IMG/VR virus record: IMGVR_UViG_3300021255_000050 | Location: 51,380 to 115,379 of that record | Source: a virus | Taxonomy: Duplodnaviria > Caudoviricetes | DNA length: 64,000 bases | Reading direction: 5' to 3' (one strand) | Part shown: positions 20,356 to 40,391 of the stretch, piece by piece | How positions within the stretch are numbered: position 1 is the stretch's first letter | How the letters are laid out: each line of letters starts with the position of its first letter | The notes under the pieces: generated by a model | Databases searched by the model: none | What the model saw: the letters and a program-made list of their open reading frames with translations, nothing else | What the model was told of the DNA's origin: nothing | Position numbers and translations under genes: made by a program

Positions 20356-23300
20356 TTACCAGCTAAGTCTTGTAGTTGCGATGCCTTGACCTGAGATCTG
20401 CTTTACAAATTCCTGGCCGACCTTCTCGGCGAGTTCCTGAAGATCGAGGTTGTCATTCAGTTGGTTCGTGCTTACGTGAATGTCGCCGACGGTAACGGTT
20501 GGCTTACCTGTCAGCATATCGGAGCGGAACGCGGTCGAGAACATGGGGACGCTCACGCGAGAGAACGCGCTGATCATCTTGCGCATGTCAGCCATAACGC
20601 CGCTGTCGAGCAAGCCACGAATCATTTCGCGGTCATCGCTGTTAAGGAAAGCTTCGGGCTTGGACTTAGTGCCGTCAACCCATGCCGGGCCGGTGTAATC
20701 TACGAGGCCGCCACTCTTGTATTCTGAAACATTGATCTTGTTCTTTAATGCTTGCGCATAACCATGTACCATTCTTACTGTTGTTGCTACATCACCATAT
20801 CGCTGTGGGTTTGCATTAACAAAAGACGCGGCCAATTCATCCAGCATAGCTTCGGCAGCCGCTCTTGCTTCTTTTTCCGTTCGGAAACCTTGAAGGGTTC
20901 GTCCCTGGAATCCATGCGCCGTTTCCCATCCAGCTTGATATCTCTTTATTGTTGCAATTTTCTCGTCGCTGTTAGCATTTTTGTTTGCACCACTGTTGGT
21001 ATTGCCACCGGTGTTGCCGCCGCCATTACCGCCACCGCTGCCATCGCCGCCGTTGTAATTAGCAAAGTTCTCGTCGCTGTGGAAATATGTAGCCATATCT
21101 TGCATTGCTGCAATCCATGCATCATATGAACCAGAGCCGGCATCTACATCGAGCCACTGATAAAGAAGTTGCTTACGCTTGTCGTCACTGGCTGTCTGGT
21201 ATTCATCGGAGGCCATCATATAAGCTGCGAAGGATTCTCTGTCACCGAGTATGTTATGCACTTCATCCCAGTAGGTATCAAGAATGTGCAGCATCTGCTT
21301 ATAGGTATCGGTCCAACTCTGAACCATTTGTGTTTGTGCATCTTCAATACTGTAAGTGTATTCCTTTACATTTTTCTTCAGCCAATCAAAAAGCTCTGTC
21401 TGGTTAAGCTTCATAACTCCATTAACCTCTTCGGCAAAGTTATTAGCATCACGCAGCAAGCGCTCCAGATCTTCGTCACCATATGTTACGTACTGATCGT
21501 AAGCTTCGATCTCGTCGTCCATGCTCTTCTTCTGTGCTTCTACTTGTTCTTCTGCGATCTTCCAGCCGCGCTCTTCCTGCAGATCATCGATCTTCTTCTG
21601 CAGCTCCTTCACATCTTTCGTGCGGGTGCTGTCCATGCTGATAAGAGCAAGCTGCCTCTGGTATTCAGCAAGCTCTTCGGCCTTCTTGGCTTCGTTACTT
21701 GCGTCCTTCCTGCGCTGGAGTTCTTCGTCAATATACTGTTTCTTCTTTTCGAGAGCTTCCTTCTCTTTTTCAACGCCCTTCTTAATGAGCAATATGTTGG
21801 CGCAGCAGGTTGTCATCCTTGCGCCGTTATACAGTGCACTTAAATATACTGCCAGTGGAAACCGCCGGCGGTTTTGCGCAGACCACAAGCAGCTCGCCGA
21901 ACCATCTCTTTTCCGGGGAGACTTTGCGTGGCCGCTTTTGCGCTGGGATAAATAACACCGGTCTCAACACACAAGACCGGTTTCGAATTTATTTCTGCTA
22001 GCTTTTGCTTTGTTTCCTCTGAGTGGTGGAACCCTGTTTTTACTGCACTCATCTTCTTTCGGTACTCCTCTGTATGCATTGCGTTAACGATCTTCTGATG
22101 CACCTCTGGTTCCGCAAGTATCTGGCGCCGAAGCTCGATGTACTCCGGGTGTTCTTCAATGTATCGGTGCAAGCTTTCGATCCGGCGAGCTGTTACTTCG
22201 GGCGAAACCTCGCGACCACCTTCACCGCCGGCTGTCATGTTGTAGCCGTACTCCGGGTTGTTCGAATGGTAAGCTGCGATGAACCGTTGCTCTTCGCTGT
22301 TGAGCGAATCAATGCTGCAGGGTTCGAGGAGGAAAGCATCGAAAGCTTCGGGACCATACTTATTATATGCGTACTGCAGATGAGTGTTAGGGTGGGAACC
22401 GCGCTTTAGTTTACTCATGTGTTCTTTCAATCTCCTATCTACGTTTTTGGACTGGCCAATATAACACTTATTATTTACCATGTTTCGAATCATGTAGATA
22501 CCACTTTGAATGCAACCACCTGCCTTAGGTGGCACTGTATAACCCTCACACTTTCATGCGAGTTCAGACTATATCTTGTGTGCGCAGCAAAGCGCAGCAC
22601 ACCAACCGCTTCGGCAGCAATGACGGGGCGCTGCCTACTCCATATAGGATAGTCGTTGAACCTTCTTCTCAGCGGGCTTTGCAAAGTCTTATGAGAAGCT
22701 TGGCTGCTGATTGCCCGTGTACATCCGCGCCATTTTCGAGCATTCGCGTTTGCTCTCGCGAGCTGCGCTGTAGCTGGCGGGCTTTGGGGTGTTCCAGCAA
22801 TTCGATTGGTAGGGACCGTATAATCCCATTCGTCTTGGTAGCGTTGTTTAATCGCGTCGAGAACCGTCGTTTCCATTTGGACGCGAGCATCGAGCATGTC
22901 GCGCTGGATCTGGATGCGGTTCCGAATTTCCTGATCAACGAGGTCTTCGAGATCAGTATGCGTTTTGAGGATAGCTTGCTCGTTCTGTTTCATCTTCTTG
23001 GTGTTCGCGTCAATTGTATTGTTAGTTTCGTCTAACTGCTCTTCGTACTGCAGCACTTGCTCGTAAAGTTTTTGCCAGTCGTCGGAACCACGCTCTGTCG
23101 CGGCAAGCTGCTCGCGAAGCTTCGTGATCGCGTCGGCGAGGACCACGCTCTTCTCGCGCTGCAGCTCGTTCTCGTACTCGATCATATTGTTGACGTTGCC
23201 GAGCTGGCCGAGCTGTTCGTACTTGGTTTCCTGGAGTTGGGTCATCTTGATGCGGTGATCGGCAAGAGTAATTTTGTTCTTGAGGTTTTGGAGAAGCTTG

Positions 23301-26300
23301 TCGGCTGCAGATTTACCACCGCCGCCACCGCCGCCGGCTGGCTTAATACCGCCACCACCGCCGCCGAATTTTACTGAGTCTGATTTGAGTTCGGCAACAT
23401 ATTGTCCTTCAGAATTCTTTACGATATCCCAGTTAGCCTCAATGTATGCCTGAAGAGTTTGGAGTATACTCATTACGTCGTCACTGACTTGTCCTTGCAA
23501 TGCCGAAATAATCGAACCGATTCCTACGTCTTCAACAGAGCCGCCGTTAAGCATAATATGCAGAGGATTATCCAATTCGATAGTTCCAAAGTCTATTGTA
23601 TTAAGAACATCGTTAATAGCAGCAGTCGCTGTTTGTGCAAAGCCAGTAGCTACTTCTATATCAGAAGATTCAACACCTTTAAGTAGCTGCTCTACAAGAC
23701 CAGCATTTGCGGAGTCCTTAACGAACTTCTTATTATTAATACCTGTTTGCTGCATGATAGAGGAAACAACATCTTCAGATCTATTTCCTTTGCGCCACTG
23801 TTGTCTTGCCCATTGGCGTTCATTAGCTTCAAGCAGTTCTTTATTCATATTGTTAAGCGTTTGATTTACATCTTGCTGTGAACCATTAAGCCCCTGCAAG
23901 TTCTTTTTTACTGACTCTGTGTTATATCCATATTTACCCATCGTTGTATTGGCAGTATCAACAACTTTCTTTAAGTCTCTGAATGTTTTAGCAGAATCTC
24001 TGTTCTCATCATTAAGAGCAGCAAGTGCTTCTGTCCCACCATCAAACTGTTTGATCATATCGACGAGCCATGTATTATCACTCAGATATGAAGAGAAACC
24101 GGCAAGATCAAGAGATCCTGTAGAAAGCGCACCAGCAAAGTCGCCACCGGCATATCCATTGAGGGCGCCCATCATGATGCCAGCCGTTTGATCAGACCGC
24201 AGTCCTGCCATAGAGGAGTTGTTGTACAGATCATTCAGCAGCATATTGTAGGTGTTTGGATCACCAGTGAGTTGCCATGACTGAGTATTTTGATCGTATG
24301 TGTACAGCCTTGCGAAAGCTTCTGCGAGTCCGCTGCCTTCGAGGAAACTCTGGAATTGACTGCCATTTTTAATCCAGTCAGTTTCGGAAGATGTCAGCGC
24401 GTTAAGCAACGATTGAGCATCGCCAGCGCTAGTAGCCATTTCAAGCAGTGTGTTAACGCGACTATTCTGAAGTTGCTTGGCACCATAGCCAGATGAGTTA
24501 TTTACAAAGCTTGCAAAGTCGCTTTCGGTCCAGGCGTCTGTTACTAAGTTTGCACCTTGAGTAATTGCATTGGCAAGAGTTCGGAAAGTTTCTGCAATAT
24601 CTGCAGCGCCATCCATGCCAGAAGTTTTGATCATGGTTGCCATTTCATCAAGCGTTGTGGCATATCCTGAGTATGAAGTTCTCATGCTTTCACGGACTTT
24701 ATTCACGCTGTCAGCAGAAGCATCAAGCGAATCAACATCCATGTCACTCATGTCACCGAATTGTTTTGCGTATTCTTTTATCTTCTCGCTATCATACGTA
24801 CCGTACTTCGTCATATTACCAAGTTCTTTATATGCTTCAGAGAACGCAACCACATCGTCAACGATTTGGTTAACGGTACTATTGCGCTGCTTTGAAGTAC
24901 CGAAGAGACTACCATACTGATTGAGGAGATCAGCATTGAGTTCCGGGTTTTCAAGCAGCTTCTGAGTAACTTGAGCTTGGCGAAGCTCTTCGTTGATTTC
25001 GTTAATCTCGCCGGGGTTAAGTGTACCGCCAGCCATAACGCGGGCTGCGTACTTGCCCCATGTGCCGTAGTTACCGAGAGCGGCTGCGAGGCCACTGTTA
25101 GATGAGTCGAAGGTTCGGAGTGTATCAGTGTCGCCGTTGGCAAGAGCTGTCATGAACTTCATTACATCTTCATTGCCGTAAGCTGTATAAGAGTTGTAAG
25201 CATCCATGCCGTAGGCATACTGTGCGATGGTATTGAGTATACCTTGCCGGTCGCCGTTCTTAACGAGAGTCTGGAATGCTTCGTCTTCGGCGAGCGTTCT
25301 AGCGAGATCAGAATTTGCAAGGACGCCTTTTGATATGGCATCTTGATATGACATGCCAGAGTTCATAAATTTAAGAAGCTGCATTGCGTCGCGGCGCGGA
25401 TCATATGTGTTGGCTACACGCTGCGAAACTTGAGCTGCGGTTGGATTAACGCCTGGAATAAACGAAACACTATAATCATTATCAAGTCCAAGTAATTTTG
25501 CAGCTTCAGATTGTTGAACTTTAATGCCATATTTCTGTAACTGAGAAATAAAACCTTCTCTATATTCAGGTGGCAAGCTAGCCATAATGATAGGTATCAT
25601 ATTAACCAACTTGTTTTTATCTGCTGCAACGGAGCTGCCATAAGTTTTCATAAGTTCTGTGTTTGACATACCCATAATTGTGCTTGCATCAACATTGAGA
25701 TAATTTGCCAACGCATTGTAATTCGAATCACTATGGCTGCCGCCGATGATTGCATTGAAAGCGTTAATACCCATGGCTGTGGTTGTGAGGGAGCCGGCTA
25801 TAGCATTAACTCTACTTGCTGCATCAGAGCCAACATCGAGTTCTGCAATTTCTTTAAGGTTGGAAGCAATGTCACTGGTAAGCTTACCAAGCTTTACAAG
25901 GTCATCATAACCACTGACTTTTACTTTGACTTCGAAATCATGAAGAAGACCTTGACCTTCTGGAGAGGCACGCTGCTCATCAGTCATGTTGAGGTATTTG
26001 TATAGTTCTGGGTAAGCAGACTTAATTTGTTCTTCGAGAGTGTCATCCATATTTTCTGACATAGTTTTCCAATCTGTGGAGTTGAGGAGAGCTTGTGCTT
26101 GCTGTGCAATATAGGCGTTGGTAAAGATAGATTCAGTTGCAACGAGAGGATTATCCGTCGGCAATGTCCATGAACCGGAAGAAGAAACCGTTCTTCTTGT
26201 ACCTGGACTATCCATTACTACACCTTCTATTGTATCTCCGGCTTCCCAGTCAGAAGATGCAGATGACCAGTAAACGCCATGTGTTGCACTAAAGTTAAGA

Positions 26301-29300
26301 AGTTGCTGCAGAAGTGGATTGGTAGCTGCAATATCGTTTATGTTAAGTTTTTTGGTTGGATCGGCTGCATCCATAATTCCTACTATAGTATCTGCCATAC
26401 TGCTTGTGAAAGAGTCTATATTTGACTCTACAGCATTTTCGAATACCGAATAAAAGAAATCGAGATTTTGTTCAACATTAGCAACACTTGTACTAAATGC
26501 TTTGGCAAGAGTAGCTTTCATTTCCGGGGTAAGGTTATCTTTCCCTGTAGCAAGAATTTTAGACTGGTCAGCCATAGTTTGAAGAGTGCTAGATGCTGCA
26601 GAAAAATAGTCAGTTAAATTCTGACTATTAAGAGATTTTTTAAGAAGATATTCACCAAGATCTGCTGCAGAATAAATTCCATCTTCAGCACGGAGACTAT
26701 CAATGATTTTATCAAGTTCGGCATCATTTTGGAGAAGAGATGAAAGATTGGGAACTTCAATGTCAGTGAGGCTAAGAAAATCATTTATATTTGACACGTC
26801 CAAAAGAGAGTATAACTTTCTGTACTCTTCAATAAATCCTTTGTTCTTGCTTGTTTGACTAATAGATTTAGAAACGGCAGAAATAGGTGAATGTTCCTTA
26901 AGTCCAGTTATGTTATTAATAATATCTTTTCTAAAGGCATTATAGTCAATGGTTTTATCTTCTTTTATATATTTATCCAACCAAGATCCGTTTTTAGCAT
27001 ATCCTCCAGAAATGATGTATGAATGGATAGCATCAAAAATACTTTTGTCGCTGAGATCATTCAATCCTATTCCGTTTTCGCCACCGATACTATATATAAA
27101 TCCTCTAGATGTTGGATCAATAAATTTACTATAATCAAAACCGCTATTTATTATCTCTTCCAAGAATTTAAATATGTTATCTGGATTCAGCAAATCCTCT
27201 TCAGGGTATTTGCTATAATAATAATCAAGCAAAGCGCTTTCGACATCAGTATTTCCAGATGTTAGCGTCGTCCAAGAATCTGAATATCCGTTTGTTATAA
27301 CATCCTTAACATATTGTTTTATTCGATCTTTTCTAGTCAGATCGCTTGTATAGTAAAACTTGTTTAAGTAACTGTCATTGTCATAAACTTGATCGATAAA
27401 ATGCTGTGCTGCATAATAATCTTCTTGCTTTTGCCCGTCTGCATTCAAATGATTTATAACTTCATCGGCAGTTCTATATGAATGCCAAGCATCATAAGGC
27501 CTTGAAATATCGTTAGCTAAATACATTGTAAGCAATTCTTTTAATGCGTCACTTGGAGTAATTCTCGTTCCGGAAAGAATACCGGTTAATTTGCTGGCAG
27601 CAGATTCATCATAATATCTATAATCAAAATCATTTGGATCATATCCTTCGTCTTGTAACTTCTTACGCCATTTTTCAATATCTTGAACTGTTGAATTAAC
27701 TGTTACCGGAAGAACTTCCTTTGATGTTTTACCAGCCAAACTGTTAGATATTGTTTCTTTAGCTTTACTCGATTCTTCTTCTATTATTGGTTTAGCAATG
27801 CCAAGAGCATATATCAAATCGTCTTTTTTCTGCTCTTTCATAGCTTCCTTGGCTTCTTTATATAATGTAATATAATCTTCTAGGCTTGCGTTTGTAATAT
27901 CTATTGAACGACCTAATTTTGGGAAAACAGCAGATAATGAAAGAACTGAATTAGCAAGTTCAAGTGAATGCTCTGAACTGATCTCACTTAATGAATCGTA
28001 CTTTTCGGTTATTTTTTCAATAGATGAAATAGCTTTATCAACAGATTCGTATTTTTGTTTGTATTGTTCATTATTAAATTTCAACTTTTCCCTTGCATCT
28101 GAATTAGTGTCATTGTTAGGAGTTTTCGTACCACCAGATAATCCGGGTAAAATATTAAACAAAAACCCAGAACTAGCAATACCAAAAAGACTACCAATTA
28201 TACCGGCAATAGGAGCAAGAGGAGTTGCAGCAAGTCCTATAGTTGTTATAGATTTGATAAATACGCCAGTCAACAAGGACATGATTGTTTCAGCGATAGC
28301 AATTGTTTGTTTCCCTGCATTATTCAAATCAGTTAAACCCTGTATCATTTTTGTAATGTTGTCAAATATGCTAGTTATTTCATTGCTTGAACCAAGTGAT
28401 GCTATGAATTCATCAAACGTGGACTTTAAAGTATCTAACGCCGCTTGAATGCCTTTAATTGAGACTTCATATTTTGATTGAGTTGTTCCTTTTGCGTTTT
28501 CAGTCAAACCTAAATATTCATCAAGTAAGGCACCACCGTCTTCACCCATACCTTCCATAAGTGTATTGAACATATTGGCATTTCTATTACCAACCATAGC
28601 ATATGTGATATTGTTCTTTTGTAAATCGTTTAACCCGTTCCATACTTTTGCAACATCTCTTAATACATCAAAAGAACTTCTAAAAGAATCCTTGCCATCA
28701 CGCAGTGAAATGCCAGCAGTTTTCAATGCAGCTTCCACGTCATTTATATTGGTAGTTTCTCCACCTTCATCTGTAAGGTATCCTTCTTTTGTAACTCTAT
28801 TCATTCGACTAAACAAGGTTTGGAAAAATGTTCCAGCTTGATTTCCGCTCAATTGAGTCTTGCTCGTTGCGATTGTTAACATTGAAGTAAGTTCTGCATA
28901 TGAAACGCCTGCTGTCTTTGCCGACGCTGCAGCTTTCTGCATTCCTTTTTGAATCTCTTCTGCAGTTGTGGCAGCGCTATCACCCAATGCGACCAATACA
29001 TCCATAGCTTCTTCAACAGAACTAACAAGTCCTGTTTGAATAGCTGTTGTTAATCCCTTTGTGGCATTTGTAATATTTTGGCCTGTGACTGTGCTAAATT
29101 TAATAATTGCCTCAGTTCTGTCTTCCACTTCCGCATCAGACAAGCCCTGCCTATACAATGCAGCTTTTGTTTGAGTAACATTTTTCACAGAAGTATGAAG
29201 ACTCTTCGCTTGTGAAAGAGAACTAGAACGAACAATACCCATTTCCTCATCTGATTTCCCAGTGATTTGTTGAATGGTAATCATGTCTGCATTAAACTGT

Positions 29301-32300
29301 TTTACAAAAGAAGTTATTTCATTGGCTATTTTCATAAATAATCTGCGGCCCAAGCGCATAATTAATCCGTCAACAGCACGACTTACATTCATAAGAGATG
29401 TTCCGACAAAACCACCAGCACTACCAAAATTCTTCATTGCCTTTTGTGCAAATTCTAAATTGTTTTGCAATTCTTTGATTTTGCTATTTGACGCATCCAA
29501 CTGTTTGTCTATATTATTCATTGATTCTGTGTATATAGAGTCTTTAGTTTTTCCATAGTAAGAATGCTCTAAATCATCTTTTCGCAATAACAGCGCATCG
29601 CGAGTTGCTTCTTCCGTATTTAATTGCGCTTCATAATTAGACGAATTATTTTTCCAGTAATTATATTGTTGTTCGTTATATTGTAATGACCGCCCAATAA
29701 TGTCAGAACCATAATACGTATTGGACATTTTATAGCGAGCCATGTTTTGTTCTAATTGATTCTGATATTGCATAGCTTGTGTTTGTTGCCTAACAAGATC
29801 AAGCTCTTGTTTTTCTTTCTGCGATTTATCCAAAGTACTTTTTAGTGTATCTGCAATCGCGCCCTGATTCGCAGTGTTATCTGGATTGACAAATGGGAGG
29901 AATTCTGCCGGCAATGCATCGATACCATTTTGATTTATAAATGTATTGATAGCATTAGCATAACTTCTGGCTTTAAGATCATTCATTGTAGCATTTGCTA
30001 TTGGCATGCCTGTAATCGAAGAGAAAAGATTATGCATATTCTGCAATTGATTAATATCATATCGATCTAGTTCAAGTTGATCCATTCTGTCCAGTTTGTC
30101 AAGATCAGCCATCTGCAATCTATCTCTAATTTGCATCAATTTGTACATTTCAGGATTTCTTGATTTAAAGCCTGCTTCATCAGCTTCTCGTTGCCATTCT
30201 AATTCAGGGTCTATCGCTTGTTTAAGGAAGTCCATATATTTTGAATGCGTTATCCTTCTATCTTCCTGCTTTTGTATAACCGCATCCTTCCTAGTTAATA
30301 ATGAATTTGCATATGCTTCGACCGCTTTAACTTTAAGACCACTTTCATATTCATCAAAATCGAAAGCATGCAATGAGTCCATTAAACCATTTAACGTTGT
30401 TTGTTGCTTTTCTGAAAGTTTCTCTCTAGCAAAGATTCTAGTTAAATCGGCTTTTTGTTGTTCGATCTCAAGACGTTTTTTAAGAACTTCTGCTTGAACA
30501 TTATCGCTAATACTTGTTGTACCAAGAATGTCTTTCGTGGCAGTACTCTCTGCCAAAAGAGTATCATTTATATATCTCTTTCTAAGCTTATTAAGATTGT
30601 CTTCAGATTTTAAATTTTCAAATCGACTTATAATAACACTAGCATCAACAGGTTGAATAATTCCTTTTTTAGAAAGTTCGGAAACATTTCCAATATTCTG
30701 ATTAATATCTTGCTCAAATGCATCCATCATCTGTTTAATTGTCAGTTTCTTCATATTTGGGCTTACCTTGCCATTCATTTCATTTTCAGCTATATTATAT
30801 GAATCTGCAAGTGTTTCAAGCATTCGCGTTTCAAGGCGATTTTTATATGTAGCCACTTCTACTGCTGCTCTATTGTATGGATCTCGCGTTGCTTTTTGCG
30901 CTTCTATAAGTTCTTTCTGTTGCTGTTTGAGTCTTTCTCTTTGAATATTTGAATTTGCATTAAAGGTATCAATTTCTGTTTGTTCTTTCTCTTGTTCTTC
31001 TTTTGTTTTGGCTCTATGCTGATTGTTTCTATCCTTTTGTTTGTCATCCAAAGTCTTCCACTCATCTTGAATGGCTTTTATTTTTAGTCCAATTTCAGCA
31101 TAGTTTTTGTCGGCTTGGTCTACAGATTTACTCAATGAGTCCCATTCTTCGATAACATTATCAATTTCTTTTGATGCAACAAAACCTTTATTAACACGTT
31201 CAAGCGAATCGGCAAGTTCGTTATAAGATTTAATTGCAGCAGTTGGTAATGTTTGGTTGTATTTATCTTTTGCTTTTTCTATTGCGTTTCCAAGATTTTT
31301 TGATTCTGCATATTGTTTATTTGCCTCAAGAACTTCTTGCTGTCTCTCTGCGGCAAGAATTGTTTGATGGTACGCTTCCCAAATATTACCATATGGTTTA
31401 TCATCGGATAAAAACATTTTATCTAAAGTTCCGGTCATTTTAGTAACGTCTTTCATCGTTTCTTTATAATCTTCATGAGCTGTAAGAGTTGCGCCTATAC
31501 CTGTAGCATTAATACTACCAGCAGTAAGAGCATCATGAATTTCATTATCCCATTTATAATTTCTTAGCGCCAAAGACTTATCTTTTCCAATTAATATATC
31601 ATGAACCATATTCTGAGCTGAATAAATAAAATCCCCTCTAAGCCCAGTATTTGCGAGTTCTTGCATAGTTTGTACAGCAAGTTTGATGTTGTCCATATTT
31701 AATTTTAGCGCTTTTGGATCAACTGAAAAATCATGTGTATATGACCCAGTTCCTGAAATAACATCTGGGAAAATAGCTTTAAGCGCTTCAAAATTATTAT
31801 TTGTTGTATCAAGAGTTGATCCGTCACCCATGACAGCCGCAGGACTACCTCCATTTTGGAATTGATCTGCCATAGCATAAGCCATAAGTTGTACTTCAAC
31901 CTTCTTTAATTGTTCATTTGTCAATGTGTCCCATCCACCATATGTTTTTATATCAGCAATTGTAAGCTTATGATTTTGTATGTTTCTAAACAAAGCGTCT
32001 TCTCGCCCTGTAAAATGAATATCTTCCCCGCCGAGTATCTTTTTGCCAACATTAGACATAGTAAGTATATGTTCATGTCCAAGATAATCATAGATATCTG
32101 TTGGGAACAAGGCACGAAGCCCATTTTCAGAAGTAAGAAAATCTCTGACATTGTGATACTTTCTGTTTGTTCTATTAACGTATGCCTGGCCAGTATATTC
32201 CTTAATAATATTTTCGTATTCGCTTGAAAGACTATCTTCTTCTAACTGTTTTCTTATATATTCGTTAAAGCCTGCATATCCTGAAGTAAGTATCTGGCCA

Positions 32301-35300
32301 GATTCATTTTTACCATGAACTAATTCATTGATAAGATCAGTCGTTTGAGCATCTGTCAATGTTCTGCCTTTGCCTTCTTTTACATTTTTGTCAACTAATT
32401 CTTGTCTACGTGTCCAATATTCCTGTATGATATCCTCTGTAGCGTGTCCAAATGCAGTATCTCTACTTGTCCCTGTATCAGAGTGTTCAGGCTTACCTAG
32501 ATTCTGCTTTATCCATCTAGATCCACCAAACGTTTCATCGGCAAAACCAAGTATATTTGTTATAGACCAAAGCGTATTATCTAATTGTTCTTGAATTGTT
32601 TCTTTTGGCATTCTTGCTAGAGTCCTGAGTTTATCGTCATCGTTTTTCTCAGATCGCCATTCTGAAAAATTATCTTTGTTGTAAACTTTTAAACTTTTCA
32701 AATCAAGATTGCTATATGGGTTAATACCAAATCTTTCTAATGCAACAAGACGAGCGCCCCAATCCTTAGATTTCCCTGAAACATTGCCTTCATACAGACC
32801 TATATTCGGATCAATAATATTTGCAAGCGTTGCACCGCCAAATGCTTCAATAATCTTATCAACATCGCTTGCTGTTCTTCCGATATTCCCCTCTGCCTTT
32901 CGTGCTGCTTCTTTCATTTCAAGAAGCGAGAAAATATCATCAGAAGATCCTATAAGAAAATCGCTTTTAAGTAACCCAGAAAGATATGTTTGCATTCCTT
33001 TAATATATTTTCTAGTTTCTTTCGTGAGTTTAGGTTTATCACCAAGTACGCCGGAACTTTCAAGGGAGTCCATAATACCAATAAAAGAATTTTCAAAAGC
33101 TTTATCCCAATCAATTTCTTTGTCGATATTCTGACCATGGCTTCTTGCTATCATTCTTGAAGTTAGGCTAGAATAAATATTACCAGTCATTGTCCTTGTA
33201 GGAGCATTGATCTTAAATAAATTAGTATCTCTAAATTTGTTATAGTCATAGTGTCCTCTATCATCTTTGCTTTTCATTAATGTGTTATAAAATTCAGACC
33301 ATGATTTATATTTATTCATGATCTCTTGTCCTTCTTTTGTCGAGTTAAAGAAAAAACCATACTTTGCAGCAACTGAATTTGCATCATATTGGGAAGATGC
33401 CATGTTAATTGCTTTAGCGGTTTCTCTATTTATTGGTATTTGTAAAGCATTTCTTGTTATTGCATTGGGAGCACCAAGACGAAAACTTTGTTGTGCATAT
33501 GCAGATATCCATTTACCTATATGAGCAGGATCTTTTGTATTAAATTCTGTTAAATCACCCATAATGTTCTGCTTAAGAGCGGCTTCTCTTTGACTTTTTT
33601 CTTCTTCAGTCATTTGTCCTTTTCTCATAAGGTCGTTATGAGTTTTGATTGTTTTCGAAAATATTGTTTGAATAATCTTTGACATTGGAGCATTTGAAGA
33701 TATAAGATCAAAAATTTCATTAACGTCGCCATCAAAGTCTTCACTTTGCAATAAATCTAACAAAGGAGATGACTGTGAAAAATATATAGCGTTTGGATCA
33801 AGCCCCAATAATTTTGTAAGATCCTTAAAGCTTTTAGACTTTCCAGCTCTTATAAGTGCTTGTTGGTTAGCTACATTATTAACTTGCTGTAATGAACCAA
33901 TGGATGCAGGAAATCTACTAATGCCAAGCATGTCTGACAAGCTTTTTGAATATACCGCGGCATTATCAGCTATACGTACATCAGATATTTCTGAACCATT
34001 TTTAGGGTCAATTAAAGAATTAACAATTCTACCAGCCGCATTTACGACGGCACCTTTTACTTGCCGTTCAACACCATTTTTATCCTTTATATTAGCCACG
34101 GCATTTGGATCCCACTTATATCCAAGTCCGAGCATGCTTGTTGGAATTTCACTACCTTCTATTCTTCTACGATACATGCCGCCCTTTGTAGGTTCAATGT
34201 CTTGATATAATGCATTAATAGCATCGGAGAAAACATTTGCAACCCATGGTGCTGCTAACCCTCTATGCGTACCAAGTTCTTCCGGGACAACAAGATCCCC
34301 TCTGCCAACTCTTTCTAACATGTTTCGACGGAAAGCTTCAACTCTATTTTTATATTGCTTTTGGTTTAAGAGAGTTGGATTATCAATTAGCATCTTTTGC
34401 AAATTTGAATCGTCCGCGAACACATGCTTAATTTGACCAAGCGGTGTATTGAGGTCGGTGTATAAGTTCCAAAATGCATCAGAAAATACTTGAGCTTGCG
34501 TTGCGTCAATTGACATTAACTGAGCCAGCTGTGATGGTATCCATGATAACGTTTTACTGCCGGCTTGGGCAGCTGTTTTATTTACATATATACCACTTGT
34601 TCTTATACGATTCGCGAATTCTTTTGACAATTCATCAGATGATTTTGTAACTTTATACGTCTTCCCATCCGGGCCTGTTACATCTTTCTGAAAAGCAATT
34701 CCGAAACCCTTCAAATCAGCCTTGTTGAGAACAACATCTGTGTCTGCTTCAATAAACTGTATAGATCCATCAGGTGCACGAACTGGGATTTTCCCACCGA
34801 AAAGATCAACCATCTGCTTCATATTGACAGAATTAAGAGCAGATTTAACACCAAGAATACGTCCCTGAAAAGCCGTGCCTCCAGTTAACTTTGACGAAAG
34901 AAAACTTGCGCCATTTAAACCTGGGCCTACTCCTCCTTGCCCTTTCGTATCCTCTTCAATATCCATTACAACAACTTTCAAGTTCGAAAGGTTAGTTCCA
35001 AAAAGGTCTCTAATATCAACACCTTCGGTAGCTATTTTATTCATATATTCAAAGTATCCAGCAAAATCTTTTACATTTGTAAATTTGCCGCCTTGCATAC
35101 CTCCGGTGAAGAAATCTTTGCCATATTTACTTTCTATTCTATTCTTTAACTCCAAAGGAATCATTTCAATTCCTGTAGACTTTGGATTAATTCTTGTTGC
35201 GGCATATTTAACACCATTAATTGTTCGCCCATGTAAAAAGAGATTGCCATATTTCTTTTCCAAATCTTTTCTTATATCATCAGGTGTATTCGGATCAGCG

Positions 35301-36820
35301 AGCCTCGGGTCAATTGAGACATACACAACGTTATTTAATGCTGAATTATGTGGAAGAACTTGGTGGCCACCTGTTTCTTCTCGCATAATAGCATCAAGTT
35401 CAAGGCTTTGATTAACAGGTATTTTGTGTTCTCTATTAGCACCAACTGAATTATCTTGAAAATTTTCTCCGCGTAACAATTCATCAATTGTATATGTTGT
35501 TGCTTGGTATGTATTCGGTTGAACCGCAAAGTTAACATGTCCTATATTTTTATTAAGCTTTGGTGTTTTGGTAGCCTTCCCATTTTTGGGTTTAGGCATA
35601 CTGGCAAGATAAGAGCTTGTTGCAATATCACGAAGATCAGTCAGTTGTGTGTCAGTAAATCTTCCAGGTGACAACCAACTAAATTGTTTTGTTAAAAATC
35701 TTTCAGCATCAAGCCCGCCATATAACATTTTGTTTGTTTTGTTGAGAATCCTATCAAACATGTTTGGGTCTGCGACATCGGATATACCATACATTGGTAA
35801 ACCTTTTGCACCATTAATAGTCATATCATGGATAAGAGCTGCAGCGGCATTGACCTGCTGCCTCGTAATAGCTTTGTCAAGATAAAAATAACCATTTTCT
35901 CTACGAAGAACTTGCGCTTGTTCGAACGCCTTTGCTGCATATTGGTTTTCTCGTACCAATGAAGCTACACGCTTAAGTTCATTTTTCGAAAGACGATCAT
36001 TATTATTTTTAGAAGTGCGTGTCATATAATCAGACTGTTGAATCTCGGCGAAACCAACATTCGATGCACCTGCTTTAAACTGCCCTGGTAACATATCGGC
36101 AAAGCTATTCATAGGCCCCATGCGTTGGTTTTGTCCTCTTAAATGATTCATAAATGATCCACGTTGAGTTTTGTCTACTTCTGTTATGATATTTAACCCA
36201 ATGAGATCTGACATGAAATTATCAAATGTTTTATTGTTTGCAAGATTTTTAGAAGCCTTCCTTGTAAAATATGTCATGTCTGTTTTTATCTGGCTTGCTA
36301 TGTCTTGATAATCTTTTCTATGCATAACCGCACCGCGAATAACATCATCGGTTACAATGCCACTATGCGTTGAAGTGTTATGAGAAAAATCATTTGCAAC
36401 TTTTAAAATTATATCTCTTAGTTTTGGCAATTGTTGATTAACAACACTTATATCATGGTTAGTTAATCCAAGGCTTGATAGACTCCTTGCGAGTTGTGAT
36501 GCAACTGTTAAATCTTTTGATAACCCGGCAATCGTATGCAAACCTACTTCGTAACGACCAGCATTAAGAGTGTTAGAATAATCATTCGACGAAGATGAAG
36601 TGTACTCCTTTTTAGCTTCATCCATTATACTAGTAGTTTCTTCTAGATCGTGCCTAATCTGTTGTGTAAAATTTCCGAAAACAGGCGCCATTGAAGCAGC
36701 GGCTGATTCTATACCACGAATTCTTGACTCAAGACGTTCGCTTGCATCCGCAGCATTGACAAGATCTTTATAGCCGCCCATATCCATTTTTATTTGTGCT
36801 GTAAATATAGCATCGGCCAT
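20356..36820 (-). CDS. giant tape measure polyprotein, spliced: exon 1 36820-22823, exon 2 21789-20356 (~5,143 aa)
   Basis: TP901-type TMP core at ~29310-28400; C-terminal GGLVDYTGPAWVDG..KPEAFL; the splice joins ...QDEWD|LIKKGVEK in frame; position between TAC and Dit. Confidence 0.88.
21790..22822 (-). mobile_element. group I intron (1033 nt) in the TMP gene
   Basis: 5' splice after U with P1 GGGAU/GUCCC; P AATTGCTGGAA, Q AATCAGCAG, R GTTCAACGACTA, S AAGATATAGTCT; terminal G at 21790. Confidence 0.92.
21840..22535 (-). CDS. intron-encoded GIY-YIG homing endonuclease with NUMOD-type C-terminus
   Basis: SGIYMI..NNKCYIGQS..R, GYN, HHSEETK, KPVLC.ETG..Y.S, TAGGFHW. Confidence 0.93.
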   Translation of the reverse strand: MPPKAGGCIQSGIYMIRNMVNNKCYIGQSKNVDRRLKEHMSKLKRGSHPNTHLQYAYNKYGPEAFDAFLLEPCSIDSLNSEEQRFIAAYHSNNPEYGYNMTAGGEGGREVSPEVTARRIESLHRYIEEHPEYIELRRQILAEPEVHQKIVNAMHTEEYRKKMSAVKTGFHHSEETKQKLAEINSKPVLCVETGVIYPSAKAATQSLPGKEMVRRAACGLRKTAGGFHWQYI

Positions 36821-37739: not shown

Positions 37740-37976
37740 TTAGTGAAAATCGCGCTCGCCGTTTTCGCTGCGGCCAGTTACGCGCTGGTAAAGCTCGCCA
37801 TGCTTCTTGTCAGGATCGGAATCGCTGACGATAGGGAAAGGGTTCGCCTGTTCGAGAGTCATCAGCTGCACAGCGCAAGCGCCAATGCGGCCAAGCTCCC
37901 CGCTGCGGTCAATGCCGAGCTTATAGTTACGGTAATGTATCTGCATTTCGTTATACAGATCAAATGCTGTCTTCAT
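37740..37976 (-). CDS. hypothetical protein
   Basis: GAGGTG SD before ATG 37976; followed by a hairpin terminator near 37703-37734. Confidence 0.55.
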   Translation of the reverse strand: MKTAFDLYNEMQIHYRNYKLGIDRSGELGRIGACAVQLMTLEQANPFPIVSDSDPDKKHGELYQRVTGRSENGERDFH

Positions 37977-37989
37977 AGTCAACACCTCG

Positions 37990-38331
37990 TTAATCATTTG
38001 CCCATTCCATCCCCTGCATATCCTTTTCTGCTGTAATAGGAACGTTAGCGAAAAGCGCAAGGAGACCGCTGGCAACATTTGCGGAATCACCACGGAGGGG
38101 GTTCGCCTGCTCGATAATCTTGCCGGACTCTTTTGCAAAAGCATTGCCGGCATAATTAACAGCGGCTTCGTAATTCAAGCGCTTGCCTAGCGCTTTAAGG
38201 ACTGCTTTGAAGAACGGGATACTCATGTTATTGATCTTATCCTCGTTAACTTCACCTAAATGAACAGCGACAGCAGCAACAGCTTCATCAAGAGTTAGCC
38301 CATCGTCGCCGCTGTCGCCATCCGGTTTTTT
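37990..38331 (-). CDS. tail assembly chaperone -1 frameshift extension (gpGT-like)
   Basis: A AAA AAC at 38331-38325; the -1 frame is open (PDGDSGDDGLTLDEAVAAVAVHLG..MSIPFF) to 37990. Confidence 0.8.
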   Translation of the reverse strand, partial: KKPDGDSGDDGLTLDEAVAAVAVHLGEVNEDKINNMSIPFFKAVLKALGKRLNYEAAVNYAGNAFAKESGKIIEQANPLRGDSANVASGLLALFANVPITAEKDMQGMEWAND

Positions 38332-38807
38332 ACTTGTTCCTCCATCTCGTCAATCTTGTTCAAGCGGCAGAAGATGTCGAGCAAGTTGTAAATATCTGCA
38401 GAGGTCATGTTGTCGAAGTGCTTCTTCGTAAAGGCTGCATCATCAACAACACAGGTTACCCAGTCCATGAGGCACTTTGTAGGCGTACGCTTTTCGTCAA
38501 AGTAATCATCAGGAAGCTGGAAGATGTAGGGAAGCGGCATGCTTTTCAGCACCCTGTAAAAACCAGCAACACCATTACGCTGGTAGAACATGCGCGTTGC
38601 TTTTATCTCTATAGTAACGCCGTCACATGTGAACATATTTTGCATGTTCTCAGCCGGCGGGATTGGCTTGCTGGATATTTCTTCTGAAGGCTGCGGTTCC
38701 GAAATCACTTCTTCTTTCGGGAGATCGCTGGCTTCAATATCTTCATCAGGCAGTGTACCGGGGTTCGGCACCTTTTCTGTGGGAAGCTTCTTCGGCATAA
38801 TCATCAT
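38295..38807 (-). CDS. tail assembly chaperone (gpG-like)
   Basis: Between MTP and TMP; ends ..VKN on a slippery site. Confidence 0.78.
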   Translation of the reverse strand: MMIMPKKLPTEKVPNPGTLPDEDIEASDLPKEEVISEPQPSEEISSKPIPPAENMQNMFTCDGVTIEIKATRMFYQRNGVAGFYRVLKSMPLPYIFQLPDDYFDEKRTPTKCLMDWVTCVVDDAAFTKKHFDNMTSADIYNLLDIFCRLNKIDEMEEQVKNRMATAATMG

Positions 38808-38818
38808 CTCTTCTTTTT

Positions 38819-38850
38819 AAAAAAGGGCTGCCAGTGTTAGTAGCAGCCCT
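38819..38850 (-). terminator. rho-independent terminator after MTP exon 3b
   Basis: AGGGCTGC...GCAGCCCT followed by a T run. Confidence 0.75.
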
Positions 38851-38855
38851 ATAAG

Positions 38856-39010
38856 TTAGCTTGAATATTTGTCCGTATCGTAGTTGGACTCGTCGTACTT
38901 GGATTGCTGTCCGTACCCCTTGCTTACAATGCCAACCTGCCAAGCGATGTTGTCATCGCCGCCGGGGTCCATTGTAGACAGGGTGAGCGGAAATGTAGCT
39001 GCTGATTTGT
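38856..39010 (-). CDS. major tail protein alternative terminal exon 3b
   Basis: (Y)KSAATFPLTLSTMDPGGDDNIAWQVGIVSKGYGQQSKYDESNYDTDKYSS*; paralog of exon 3a, same phase, preceded by an intron-like 3' end. Confidence 0.75.
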
Positions 39011-39050
39011 CATTTACATTCAGCATAGATCGCTACACTATGCTCGCGCT
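39011..39050 (-). ncRNA. duplicate group I intron 3' module (P9.2-like hairpin plus terminal G)
   Basis: AGCGCG-AGCATAG-TGTAGCGAT-CTATGCT-GAATGTAAATG has the same layout as the 3' ends of both MTP introns. Confidence 0.75.
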
Positions 39051-40391
39051 TTAGGACGACTTCTTCTTGGGATTGTCGATGATGCCAACCTGCCATGCAA
39101 TAGCATCGTCATCGCCACGGTCCATCGTGGAGAGAGTCAGCGGGAAGGTAGCAGCAGACTTATCATATGTATTCACCGCAGTTCGCTGGGCTGCAGTCGC
39201 GCCTTAAGCACTGCTCTATGTCGCCATAGAGATTAGACCATATCTTCATCTCAAGTTGAGAGGCTACCGTTTCGACCACCAATCGCTTGTGGCCTACTCC
39301 CATATGGGATGGTCGTTAGAGTCTATGCGTATAACGCACTTGCTACGGGATTGTCTCGTAGAGAGTTTCCCCGTTTAGGTAGCTTTTGCATGCAGCTCAC
39401 GCTGCAAGGAACCTATTGTTTGCTAAGCTCGTGTCAACAGTGTGTGTTCAGCATGGTTCGCAACACCATGCCCGCTTTTCAGCTGCTGCATATCACTATG
39501 CAGATCGGACTATATCTTCATCCATTTTCATGGAGCTTCCCATTTCGAACGCCATATGCTTGCGTCCTACGCCGTAAGGCTAGTCTCTAGGCTTTTTGCA
39601 TACTCTTTTCAGGTATGCATTTAGCACGGTAGGTTGTCTTACGCTGCCGTAAGAGTTTCCCCGTTTAAGGAAGTGTCAGTATGCATTGCTGCATAAAGGA
39701 CCTTGACAAATGTAAAGCCAGGAAGAGTGGTCACGCGGGTCTTGAAGATACGAACCACAGCATACTTGATGATGCCGCTTTCTTCGCACTTCTTACCGTC
39801 GTTGTAGATAGGCCACTTAAGGATAACTTCGCCGCAAGCCACGTCCCTGTTGTTGATGTTAACAACATTGGCAGTGGAATCTGCAGTCTCGTAGAAGATC
39901 TCCATCTCGTCGGTTTCATCATCAGAGAACAGGACCGTCTTTGCTTCGGTATCAACATAGTAATAACCGGACGCAACAGGAGTGCCAGAAGCCTGTTCCT
40001 TCAGACCATTGATATACACGGTGCCAGCGGCCGGCTTATAGGTCAGGGTAACCTTGTGGGTAGTGGCATCGGGAGTAAGAGACTCGCTGACAGGAACCAG
40101 GAAATTGGGATCGTTCACGAAATCAGCAGCATTCGCGGCAGCAAAGATTTCGGGCATGAAATCGCCCAGAGTGATCTGGATGTCCATGGTGGACTGGCCA
40201 GGGATGTTAGCAGAAGCATAAGCGGACCACCCAGAGCGAACCTCAATGAAGTCCACCTGAGGATTCAGGGAGCACTGCGTAACATGCTTGCTTGTAAAGA
40301 CTTTCTTGTCGCCACCGCGCCTAAAGTAGAACTGCGGAACGTCGACAATGTAGCCGCCAAACTGTGGTACATATTTGGTTGCCATAAGCAT
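39051..40391 (-). CDS. major tail (tube) protein, spliced: 40391-39716, 39437-39426, 39163-39051 (266 aa; 280 aa with exon 3b)
   Basis: Joined reading ...RVTTLPG-F-DTS-Y-KSAATFPLTLSTMD; position between tail terminator and TAC. Confidence 0.85.
39164..39425 (-). ncRNA. group I intron 2 of MTP (262 nt, no ORF)
   Basis: P1 GAGCU/GGUUC; P3 GCTACC/GGTAGC; P4 AAACGGGGAA with AATCCCGT; P7 GACCA/TGGTC in GAAGATATGGTCT; terminal G at 39164. Confidence 0.9.
39438..39715 (-). ncRNA. group I intron 1 of MTP (278 nt, no ORF)
   Basis: P1 GGCU/GGUC; perfect P10 UGUCAA/UUGACA; P3 CTTCC/GGAAG; P7 GACTA/TAGTC in GAAGATATAGTCC; terminal G at 39438. Confidence 0.92.

What the first reader, a model, noticed from the sequence alone, without database searches (positions are those of the whole stretch)
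38856..39425. Candidate ribozyme-based alternative splicing: two mutually exclusive 3' exons for the major tail protein
Seen: after MTP intron 2 (terminal G at 39164), exon 3a (39163-39051) encodes (Y)KSAATFPLTLSTMDRGDDDAIAWQVGIIDNPKKKSS*. Right after its stop is a 40-nt segment (39050-39011) that copies a group I intron 3' end: GCG, a 7-bp hairpin with a GCGA-containing loop, GAA, then a terminal G. Exon 3b (39010-38856) follows in the same split-codon phase and encodes (Y)KSAATFPLTLSTMDPGGDDNIAWQVGIVSKGYGQQSKYDESNYDTDKYSS*. The two exons differ mainly at synonymous sites over their first ~28 codons, which indicates selection on both as protein. Exon 3b has no SD or start at its 5' end, and the terminator lies after 3b. 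Intron 2 has no good P10 for either exon, which would leave 3' site choice flexible. Known: siphophages such as SPP1 make short and long tail-tube isoforms by ribosomal frameshifting. Inference: here a self-splicing intron chooses between two 3' splice sites, giving 266-aa (basic tail) and 280-aa (acidic YD-repeat tail) tube proteins. I know of no described phage example.
Basis: partly seen in the sequence, partly recalled or inferred. Interest (0 to 1): 0.97.

Follow-up and report, generated by a model that had tools for sequence, protein, structure and literature searches.

The report
Ribozyme intron with two alternative end-exons

Summary
The tail-tube gene (minus strand) is exon 1, intron 1, a 12-nt exon 2, intron 2, exon 3a, a 40-nt copy of an intron 3' end, then exon 3b and a terminator.

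- The 3a / splice-signal / in-phase 3b layout recurs in four further diverged lineages (L002, L003, L047, L048).
- 3a and 3b keep almost the same protein while silent sites are scrambled (window pS 0.91, pN 0.08).
- 3b orthologues, including the 3b-only tail, show pN well below pS.
- The module hairpin keeps pairing through compensatory changes.
- 3b has no conserved start codon.
- Intron-less relatives carry a canonical -1 frameshift signal at the same stop codon. It adds a similar aromatic-Asp tail (FYDTDVY versus NYDTDKY).

The proposed mechanism is that the intron's single P9.1 5' strand pairs with either the proximal or the distal 3' strand, and that choice selects the terminal G.

The one metatranscriptome holding the phage gave no junction-spanning contig. 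The main rival is a recombination relic.

The closest precedents are the Clostridium tetani group II intron with repeated 3' domains and exon skipping in phage Twort. Earlier unchecked notes of this scan describe a similar layout in a Staphylococcus phage tape-measure gene.

The parts
39716..40391 (-). Tail-tube gene exon 1 (start at ATG 40391 or 40385; ends ..CCU GGC U)
   Evidence: ORF. Homologues carry PF27173 YomU_Tube. The junction is fixed by intron-less P0005.
39438..39715 (-). Group I intron 1 (ends in G at 39438)
   Evidence: Rfam RF00028, 68.1 bits. The 3'-end model R1 scores 57.8 bits at 39430-39487. A metatranscriptome contig covers 39471-39653.
39426..39437 (-). Exon 2, 12 nt (UUGACACGAGCU), encoding (F)DTS(Y)
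   Evidence: Relatives without intron 1 read GFDTS continuously.
39164..39425 (-). Group I intron 2. P1 is GAGCU/GGUUC with U.G at the 5' splice site; the proximal terminal G is at 39164.
   Evidence: Rfam, 53.1 bits. R1 scores 61.6 bits at 39156-39212. The helix assignment is by inspection.
39206..39211 (-). P9.1 5' strand GUGCUU of intron 2. It is present once and can pair with the proximal GCGC (39199-39202) or the distal AAGCGC.
   Evidence: Invariant in the window, L002, L003 and L047. In minimum-free-energy folds it pairs with the distal strand in the window, L003 and L047.
39051..39163 (-). Exon 3a: (Y)KSAATFPLTLSTMDRGDDDAIAWQVGIIDNPKKKSS plus stop. This is the short, basic C-terminus.
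   Evidence: It resembles the C-termini of intron-less homologues, which end IIDNVKN or IIDNPENQN.
39011..39050 (-). Distal 3' splice module: P9.1 3' strand AGCGC (39046-39050), GA, 7-bp hairpin (39038-39044 with 39022-39028, loop UGUAGCGAU), GAAUGUAAAU, and terminal G at 39011
   Evidence: Alignment A2 and pair counts. R1 scores 65 bits. Orthologous modules occur in L002, L003 and L047.
38856..39010 (-). Exon 3b: (Y)KSAATFPLTLSTMDPGGDDNIAWQVGIVSKGYGQQSKYDESNYDTDKYSS plus stop. This is the long C-terminus with an acidic aromatic-Asp tail.
   Evidence: Orthologues are in L002, L003, L047 and L048.
38815..38850 (-). Intrinsic terminator after exon 3b
   Evidence: 10-bp stem followed by a T run. 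A terminator also follows 3b in L002, L047 and L048.

Best explanation
Intron 2 of the tail-tube gene uses two alternative 3' splice sites. After guanosine attack at the exon 2 / intron 2 junction, the free exon 2 end is ligated in one of two ways. It joins either to exon 3a, behind the intron's own terminal G at 39164, or to exon 3b, behind the G at 39011. In the second case exon 3a and the 40-nt module leave with the intron. Exon 3b re-encodes the last beta-hairpin of the tube fold and adds a roughly 20-residue acidic aromatic-Asp tail. The phage would therefore make a short tube protein (3a) and a long one (3b) from one gene.

Proposed site choice (inferred): the intron has one P9.1 5' strand (GUGCUU) but two copies of everything downstream of it, namely the P9.1 3' strand, the P9.2 hairpin, UGAAU and the terminal G. 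Whichever 3' strand closes P9.1 presents its own G to the catalytic core. Exon 3a then behaves like an insert in the P9.1 loop.

What is shown:
- the anatomy;
- conservation of the layout;
- selection on both exons and on the module.

What is inferred:
- that splicing to 3b occurs at all;
- the isoform ratio (3a probably major, because it is transcribed first and because frameshift-made long forms are usually minor);
- what the tail does.
For: 1. The layout is conserved. Intron at the same codon, 3a, stop, splice signal, and 3b in the same split-codon phase are found in the window (and L001), L002, L003, L047 and L048. Their exon 1 proteins are only about 55-70% identical or less.

2. Both exons are under protein-level selection. 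In the window, 3a versus 3b over the first 28 codons shows 24/28 identical residues, pS 0.91 and pN 0.08 (Fisher p 2e-12). In L047 the figures are 25/28, pS 0.68 and pN 0.08. Among 3b orthologues pN is 0.28-0.45 against pS 0.66-0.98 (p 1e-4 to 9e-10). For the 3b-only tail pN is 0.30-0.53 against pS 0.67 or more, with 5 of 6 pairs at p <= 1.2e-3 and window-L047 at p 0.11. A random 50-codon frame of this composition stays open only 11% of the time.

3. The module behaves as a working intron end. Its 7-bp hairpin is paired in 10 of 10 sequences. Four of the seven pairs change on both sides, and 0 of 500 shuffles reach the observed score. The window and L003 modules differ by three double compensatory changes. 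The unpaired motifs AGCRCGA, UGUAGCG and UGAAU are kept although neighbouring silent sites are saturated. The same hairpin ends ordinary endonuclease-bearing introns (L039-L041).

4. The modules lack a local partner for AGCRC, but the intron's GUGCUU can pair with it over 5-6 bp. Minimum-free-energy folds choose the distal pairing in 3 of 4 module-bearing lineages. L048 has no hairpin but does have ACGCGA, complementary to its own P9.1 5' strand GCGU, 13 nt before the distal G (by inspection).

5. 3b cannot be translated on its own in all lineages. L002 has an in-frame TAA two codons upstream and no start codon. In the window the only ATG lies inside the hairpin stem and has no Shine-Dalgarno sequence.

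6. The exon 3 segment forms the last two beta-strands of the tube fold (model pLDDT 81; strands at residues 237-243 and 254-260). The model's best structural matches are phage tail-tube proteins.

7. Intron-less relatives L005, L011, L015 and L016 end the gene with a slippery A_AAA_AAC, an 8-nt spacer and an 11-bp stem (-18.1 kcal/mol, z -4.1). Their -1 frame encodes ..PTPPPTPPSPSSGGVYNNSFYDTDVYG, a tail like that of 3b. This indicates that the phage group needs a short and a long form.

8. Precedent from the literature: alternative or cryptic 3' splice sites of group I introns, and a remote 3' splice junction activating the T4 sunY intron core (Michel et al. 1992), are listed in PMC10136302.
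Against: - There is no RNA evidence. The only RNA run holding the phage gave two short contigs (intron 1 and exon 1) and no junction.
- L048 lacks the hairpin module, so the proposed recognition element is not universal.
- In L047 the distal P9.1 pairing has an internal G-G mismatch.
- In L003 the 3b frame runs on about 36 codons past the conserved tail into the next gene.
- 3b evolves faster than 3a. Orthologue identity is about 35-53% for 3b against about 63-68% for 3a, which fits weaker constraint.
- The selection signal could in part date from a time when each 3b was the sole exon in another phage.
- Only five lineages are known, all from gut or rumen metagenomes, and L001 is not independent because it is identical from intron 1 onward.
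Confidence: 0.7

Rival explanations
1. Recombination relic. Two phages carrying different introns at this codon recombined unequally, near the stop of 3a and the AAGCGCGA of the other intron's 3' end. This left the other allele's intron tail and last exon (3b) as an untranslated 3' UTR behind a complete gene. Only 3a would ever be spliced in.
For: - The module loop (UGUAGCGA) resembles intron 1 and unrelated introns (L039-L041) more than intron 2's own P9.2 loop (CCCAGCGAA). The module and 3b therefore came from another intron-bearing allele.
- These phages recombine at intron borders: L001 is 100% identical to the window from 39707 downward but only 46-82% identical upstream.
- L002 keeps a remnant of the frameshift extension between 3a and the module, which shows past rearrangement at this spot.
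- Silent-site divergence between 3a and 3b is what two diverged alleles would show.
Against: - A relic should decay. Instead 3b is open and in phase in all five lineages, with pN far below pS among orthologues, even in the tail that 3a lacks.
- Module hairpins keep pairing through compensatory changes, and the unpaired motifs are conserved.
- Within the window, L047 and L048, 3a and 3b share lineage-specific residues (WQVGI, SWQFAVV, WHSAI) encoded by different codons. A donor from another lineage would not give this pattern.
- Independent creation of the same order in several lineages is unparsimonious.
Confidence: 0.17
2. 3b is expressed without splicing. Candidates are a separate small protein from an internal start, ribosomal frameshifting or bypassing from 3a, or a DNA deletion between the repeats that switches the phage from 3a to 3b.
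For: - In the window and L003 an in-frame ATG or TTG lies in the module, and gene callers list a 56-aa ORF.
- In L048 the 3b frame overlaps the end of 3a.
- Direct repeats can recombine.
Against: - L002 has an in-frame stop two codons before 3b and no start.
- No Shine-Dalgarno sequence is present, and the window's ATG is buried in the 7-bp stem.
- In the window and L003, the in-frame UAG in the module loop blocks read-through or frameshift entry.
- 3b encodes only the last two strands of a fold, which would be meaningless alone, and a 3a+3b fusion would duplicate them.
- The repeats share at most 14 identical bases in a row, so homologous deletion is disfavoured.
- No contig with 3b alone was found.
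Confidence: 0.05
3. The module and 3b act at the RNA or DNA level only. Possible roles are as a decoy 3' splice site that tunes the yield of the 3a mRNA, or as spare homology that protects the gene against homing endonucleases. The 3b product itself would have no role.
For: The module is conserved as RNA. Endonuclease-bearing introns target the same codon (L031) or nearby codons (L019, L030) in relatives.
Against: A decoy role needs no open, in-phase, protein-constrained exon and no conserved aromatic-Asp tail. It also does not explain the matching frameshift-made tail in intron-less relatives.
Confidence: 0.05

Closest known systems
[quoted passage not shown]
   Same: A self-splicing intron uses several 3' splice sites. 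Each site is specified by its own repeat of the intron's 3'-terminal domains, and each is followed by a different downstream exon, giving protein isoforms from one locus.
   Different: It is a group II intron (repeats of domains V/VI) in a bacterial chromosome, and it is shown experimentally. Here the intron is group I (repeat of the P9.1 3' strand, P9.2 and terminal G) in a phage structural gene. The second exon re-encodes part of the first, and nothing has been shown at RNA level.
Exon skipping by group I introns in Staphylococcus phage Twort orf142, a tail-tube gene (Landthaler and Shub 1999; cited in PMC10136302 and PMC11878797), and in the phage SIOphi polymerase gene (PMC11878797)
   Same: Tandem IA2-type group I introns in a phage tail-tube gene, a very short internal exon (23 nt there, 12 nt here), and more than one spliced product.
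   Different: Twort skips an internal exon. No duplicated 3' splice module, no mutually exclusive terminal exons and no isoform with a distinct, conserved C-terminus are described there.
Remote or alternative 3' splice sites of single group I introns: T4 sunY (Michel et al. 1992) and Podospora coxII (Cummings et al. 1990), as listed in PMC10136302
   Same: They show that a group I core can use a 3' terminal domain far from the core, and that more than one 3' site can be used.
   Different: These are cryptic or putative sites. They have no duplicated module, no second coding exon under selection and no conservation across lineages. I did not read those papers themselves; this rests on the citing text and on my own knowledge.
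C-terminal extension of siphophage major tail proteins by programmed frameshifting (for example SPP1 gp17.1/gp17.1*; from my own knowledge)
   Same: The outcome is the same: a short and a long tube subunit from one gene. Intron-less relatives of this phage have a canonical -1 signal exactly at the stop codon and add a similar tail.
   Different: The mechanism there is translational, not RNA splicing. A frameshift adds the extension to the intact short form, whereas here the last 28 codons must be encoded twice.

Membership tests
Group I intron (Rfam RF00028) | Covariance-model score above the curated gathering threshold | tested here: met
   Intron 2 scores 53.1 bits and intron 1 scores 68.1 bits against a threshold of 50. 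Relatives L002 and L004 score 52.5 and 50.2 bits.
Group I intron (Rfam RF00028) | 5' splice site after a U.G pair in P1, terminal G at the 3' end, and precise in-frame exon junction | tested here: met
   P1 is GAGCU/GGUUC by inspection. The G is at 39164. The junction ..GFDTS|YKS.. matches intron-less P0005.
Group I intron (Rfam RF00028) | Self-splicing activity | not testable with these tools
   This needs in vitro transcription and splicing. The RNA run gave only an intron 1 contig and an exon 1 contig.
Functional alternative 3' splice-site use (as in C.te.I1) | A repeat of the intron's 3'-terminal recognition domain directly before each alternative exon | tested here: met
   The module at 39011-39050 scores 65 bits with the 3'-end model. 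The same is found in L002, L003 and L047. It is not met in L048, which has only ACGCGA and ..UAAUG.
Functional alternative 3' splice-site use (as in C.te.I1) | Both ligated-exon RNAs detected | tested here: inconclusive
   Three metatranscriptome runs were laid on the region. Only two contigs matched, and none lay over a junction.
Functional alternative 3' splice-site use (as in C.te.I1) | Each alternative exon is open, in phase and under purifying selection | tested here: met
Phage tail-tube protein (Pfam PF27173 YomU_Tube) | Profile match or tube fold | tested here: met
   Precomputed PF27173 hits exist on P0001 and its homologues. My own hmmscan of exon 1 found nothing at E <= 0.01. The predicted structure of homologue P0005 matches solved tail-tube proteins (8ygm, 8xkn, YSD1, Chi; E 6e-14 to 1e-8).
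-1 programmed ribosomal frameshift (in intron-less relatives L005, L011, L015, L016) | X_XXY_YYZ slippery heptamer in the 0 frame, 5-9 nt spacer, downstream stable structure, and an open -1 frame | tested here: met
   A_AAA_AAC, an 8-nt spacer and an 11-bp stem of -18.1 kcal/mol with z -4.1. The -1 ORF of about 30 codons is conserved between L005 and L015 despite substitutions. The frameshift product itself is not testable here.

The most novel reading that the evidence does not exclude
[quoted passage not shown] A duplicated 3' splice module lets one ribozyme core choose between two mutually exclusive terminal exons, producing two virion tail-tube isoforms. This RNA-level solution replaces the ribosomal frameshift that intron-less relatives use for the same purpose.
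Probability: 0.68. Interest if true: 0.92.

Novelty: new variant of a known kind. Interest (0 to 1): 0.86.

Why it matters
Group I introns are usually seen as selfish elements whose only service to the host is to remove themselves cleanly. A conserved case in which the ribozyme chooses between two coding exons would change that view. To my knowledge and in the literature I could search, it would be the first natural group I example of mutually exclusive terminal exons that give protein isoforms.

It would show that alternative splicing as a way to diversify proteins exists in viruses of bacteria. It would also show two unrelated mechanisms, splicing and -1 frameshifting, converging on the same short/long tube-protein pair within one phage family.

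It gives a compact natural model of about 420 nt for how a group I core selects its terminal G. That matters for ribozyme engineering, for example in circular-RNA and trans-splicing tools.

It also warns annotators that small ORFs behind intron-bearing phage genes may be alternative exons.

Tried and rejected
- RNA evidence. The look-up of sequencing runs returned one RNA study. Laying three runs gave only two short contigs, over intron 1 (39471-39653) and exon 1 (40112-40377), with no junction either way. This says nothing for or against splicing to 3b.
- Known phages. blastn of the locus against 50,697 phage records matched only conserved intron cores of unrelated phages.
- IMG/VR scans. A scan with the single exon 1 protein found nothing. 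The intron 2 P2 pattern found nothing. The 3b peptide profile found nothing.
- Pfam. hmmscan of exon 1 and three neighbouring proteins gave no family.
- P10. By inspection I found no convincing pairing of either exon start with the internal guide region. I could not define P9.0 confidently; L002's module ends CUG, not AUG.
- dN/dS as a ratio. Silent sites are saturated for most 3b pairs, so only pN against pS proportions are reported.
- L001 as an independent lineage. Rejected, because it is 100% identical to the window from intron 1 onward.
- Independent translation, read-through, frameshift and bypass models for 3b. Rejected for the reasons given under the rival explanations.
Full report
ANATOMY

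The window is the right-hand 64 kb of a complete 115,379-bp virus record with terminal repeats. The genome holds four Rfam-level group I introns plus one below threshold.

On the minus strand the gene starting at 40391/40385 encodes a siphophage tail-tube protein. Its homologues carry PF27173 YomU_Tube. A predicted structure of the intron-less homologue P0005 (mean pLDDT 81) matches solved tail-tube proteins at E 6e-14.

Rfam finds two group I introns inside the gene, at 68.1 and 53.1 bits. The intron-less homologue P0005 reads ..TTLPGFDTSYKSPATFPLTLSTMD..IIDNVKN, which fixes the exon borders:
- exon 1 ends at 39716
- intron 1 is 39715-39438
- exon 2 is only 12 nt (39437-39426)
- intron 2 is 39425-39164
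- exon 3a is 39163-39051

A 40-nt segment (39050-39011) ends in G. A second exon, 3b (39010-38856), follows in the same split-codon phase. The only terminator lies after 3b.

THE 40-NT SEGMENT IS A REAL INTRON 3' END

I aligned the segment with seven true intron ends: intron 1, intron 2, the cognate introns of L002 and L003, and three endonuclease-bearing introns found by pattern search in other phage genes. It shares every conserved element with them:
- AGCRCGA
- a 7-bp hairpin with loop UGUAGCGA
- UGAAU
- a terminal G 7-9 nt further on

The hairpin is paired in all ten sequences. Four of its seven pairs change on both sides, and no shuffle out of 500 reaches the observed covariation. A covariance model of this alignment scores the window module at 65 bits, above intron 2's own end (61.6 bits). 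In L047, which was not used to build the model, it finds both the intron end and a module.

THE LAYOUT IS CONSERVED

Only about seven protein clusters in 5.8 billion resemble exon 1 at 55% identity or more. Fetching their contigs, and a profile search with the 3b peptides against 1.84 billion proteins, gave four further lineages with the same order. In each, an intron sits at the same codon, followed by 3a, a stop, a splice signal, and 3b in phase.
- L002
- L003
- L047
- L048, which is more distant

L002, L047 and L048 also place the terminator after 3b. L048 has no hairpin: 3b follows ..GCUUAAUG directly after the 3a stop. L001 has the layout too, but it is 100% identical to the window from 39707 downward. 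Its exon 1 is only 46-82% identical, so it is a recombinant and not an independent witness.

Relatives with endonuclease-bearing introns at the same codon (L031) or five codons downstream (L019, L030) have a single 3' exon.

SELECTION

Within the window, 3a and 3b share 24 of their first 28 residues, but 15 of the 22 recodable identical codons differ. That gives pS 0.91 and pN 0.08 (Fisher p 2e-12), and the longest identical run is 14 nt. L047 shows the same pattern: 25/28, pS 0.68, pN 0.08.

This is stronger protein conservation than between orthologous 3a exons of different lineages (pS 0.34-0.55, pN 0.16-0.26). Within the window, L047 and L048, the two exons also share lineage-specific residues written with different codons.

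Among 3b orthologues, pN is 0.28-0.45 against pS 0.66-0.98 (p 1e-4 to 9e-10). The 3b-only tail alone shows pN 0.30-0.53 against pS 0.67 or more.

The tail keeps a recognisable pattern, (K/T)(G/D)Y(G/N)Q followed by repeated aromatic-Asp motifs:
- window: KGYGQQSKYDESNYDTDKYSS
- L047: KGYGQTAYFDDAIFDVDAFD
- L002: KGYGQFPRFDAAHFDSSSYYRNVA
- L048: TKGEVSYYDEALYDLSRYSTPR

A random frame of this length and composition is open 11% of the time. Five open, in-phase copies at silent-site saturation are therefore not expected from drift.

WHY 3B MUST BE JOINED TO EXON 2

The exon 3 segment forms the last two beta-strands of the tube fold, so it is meaningless alone.

L002 has an in-frame TAA two codons before 3b and no start codon. 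In the window the only ATG sits in the 3' strand of the hairpin, has no Shine-Dalgarno sequence, and has an in-frame TAG in the hairpin loop upstream of it. Read-through, frameshifting or bypassing from 3a would duplicate the strands, and in most lineages these routes are blocked by stops.

The one feature common to all five lineages is a G immediately before 3b, in the phase that restores the split Tyr codon.

AN INDEPENDENT POINTER: THE FRAMESHIFT IN INTRON-LESS RELATIVES

L005, L011, L015 and L016 are 58% identical in exon 1 and have no intron. They end the gene with GUA AAA AAC UAA. This sequence contains the classic slippery heptamer A_AAA_AAC. An 8-nt spacer and an 11-bp stem follow (-18.1 kcal/mol, z -4.1).

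The -1 frame then encodes ..LRPTPPPTPPSPSSGGVYNNSFYDTDVYG before the terminator. Its end (FYDTDVY) resembles the window's 3b tail (NYDTDKY).

L002 still carries a remnant of the start of this extension between the 3a stop and its module. This phage group therefore appears to need a short tube protein and a long one with an aromatic-Asp tail. Lineages with an intron upstream of the last beta-hairpin would obtain the long form by a second exon that re-encodes the hairpin. That explains the duplicated 28 codons and their strong protein-level constraint.

PROPOSED MECHANISM (INFERRED)

After P9, intron 2 has these elements in order:
- a small P9.1 helix (GUGCU(U)/(A)AGCRC)
- GA
- the P9.2 hairpin
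- UGAAU plus 6-8 nt
- the terminal G

The modules repeat everything from the P9.1 3' strand onward, but they have no local 5' strand. The intron's single GUGCUU is invariant in four lineages. It can form 5-6 bp with the distal strand: 6 bp in the window and L003 (each with one G.U pair), 6 Watson-Crick bp in L002, and 5 of 6 in L047.

Minimum-free-energy folds of the region from P9 to 3b choose the distal pairing in the window, L003 and L047, and the proximal pairing in L002. In L048 the end of 3a contains ACGCGA, complementary to that intron's own P9.1 5' strand GCGU, 13 nt before the distal G.

I therefore propose that mutually exclusive closure of P9.1 selects which terminal G is docked, with exon 3a acting as a loop insert in the long form. 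Two literature precedents make this plausible:
- use of a remote 3' terminal domain, as in the T4 sunY intron
- use of alternative or cryptic 3' sites in group I introns (PMC10136302)

The isoform ratio is unknown. By analogy with frameshift systems, and because the proximal site is transcribed first, 3a is probably the major form.

RIVALS

The main rival is a recombination relic. The module loop resembles other introns more than intron 2's own P9.2, so the module and 3b did come from another intron-bearing allele. These phages also clearly recombine at intron borders. That accounts for the origin of the arrangement but not for its persistence. The open, in-phase 3b, pN well below pS even in the tail, the compensatory changes in the module, and the shared lineage-specific residues all argue against a decaying relic.

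I put the relic at about 0.17. Expression of 3b by other means gets about 0.05, and a purely RNA- or DNA-level role about 0.05.

WHAT IS MISSING

RNA evidence is missing. One metatranscriptome study holds this phage, but its contigs cover only part of intron 1 and part of exon 1.

COMPARISON WITH WHAT IS KNOWN

Group I alternative splicing is rare but documented:
- exon skipping in Twort orf142, which is also a tail-tube gene with tandem IA2 introns and a 23-nt exon
- exon skipping in the phage SIOphi polymerase gene
- a few alternative or cryptic splice sites (PMC10136302, PMC11878797)

The closest architectural analogue is the group II intron C.te.I1 of Clostridium tetani. [quoted passage not shown]

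Four full-text searches found no description of a group I intron with a duplicated 3' module and mutually exclusive coding exons. Two earlier, unchecked notes of this scan report a similar layout behind a tape-measure-gene intron of a Staphylococcus phage. If that is real, the device may be more widespread.

VERDICT

I class this as a new variant of a known kind. It is well supported by comparative evidence and unproven at the RNA level.

Noticed in passing
window 39426-39437 (exon 2) with introns 39438-39715 and 39164-39425: A 12-nt exon lies between two similar group I introns, as with the 23-nt exon of Twort orf142. Skipping it would stay in frame, giving G-Y-K and losing the conserved FDTS. 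Up to four mRNA forms are therefore conceivable. Relatives L002, L003, L004, L047 and L048 lack intron 1.
   Followed up: partly
window 37752-39707 versus L001 728-2713: L001, from a sheep-rumen assembly, is 100% identical to the window from the first bases of intron 1 for at least 1.95 kb downstream. Its exon 1 is only 46-82% identical in DNA and 58% in protein. This is a sharp, recent recombination boundary exactly at the exon 1 / intron 1 junction.
   Followed up: partly
L005 855-948; L011, L015, L016 3784-3880: Intron-less relatives carry a canonical -1 frameshift signal at the tube-gene stop: A_AAA_AAC, an 8-nt spacer and an 11-bp stem. It adds a Pro-rich linker and an aromatic-Asp tail. 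L010 lacks it.
   Followed up: yes
window 22545-22902 and ORF 22490-36820 (minus strand): The giant tape-measure ORF (4776 aa as listed) runs into a third group I intron (64.6 bits), so its listed C-terminus is intron read-through. Across the whole 115-kb genome there are four introns above threshold and one below. This intron's 3' end is not of the hairpin type modelled here.
   Followed up: no
L017, L022, L026, L028, L031, L032, L036 (tube genes starting near 3001): More distant relatives have 1-3 in-frame TAG codons inside otherwise colinear tube genes, at positions where homologues have S, I, N or E. This probably reflects TAG reassignment in these phages. The apparent 141 + 125 aa 'split' tube gene of P0007 is such a case.
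   Followed up: partly
L031 3673-4598; L019 3648-4600; L041 about 7000-7716: GIY-YIG endonuclease-bearing group I introns of the same family sit at the same codon as intron 2 (L031), five codons downstream (L019, L030), and near the N-terminus of another tube homologue (L041). Each has a single 3' exon.
   Followed up: partly
L033 2627-2684 and 2959-3015: Two hits of the intron-3'-end model flank one Rfam intron core (2712-2955) in the 5' part of a tube gene. This could be tandem introns with a mini-exon or another extra 3' module.
   Followed up: no
L003 1249-1519: In L003 the 3b frame has no stop after the conserved tail. It continues about 36 codons through AT-rich sequence into the start of a different downstream gene. 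This may be a real extension, a lost stop, or a chimeric short contig.
   Followed up: no
window 39471-39653: A metatranscriptome contig (183 nt, 100% identical) lies entirely inside intron 1. This could be stable excised intron RNA, unspliced transcript, or DNA carry-over.
   Followed up: no
L017 2821-2910 and L036 2379-2480: Some distant relatives have a second tube-like C-terminus upstream of the matched tube gene, which suggests two tandem tube-protein paralogues.
   Followed up: no
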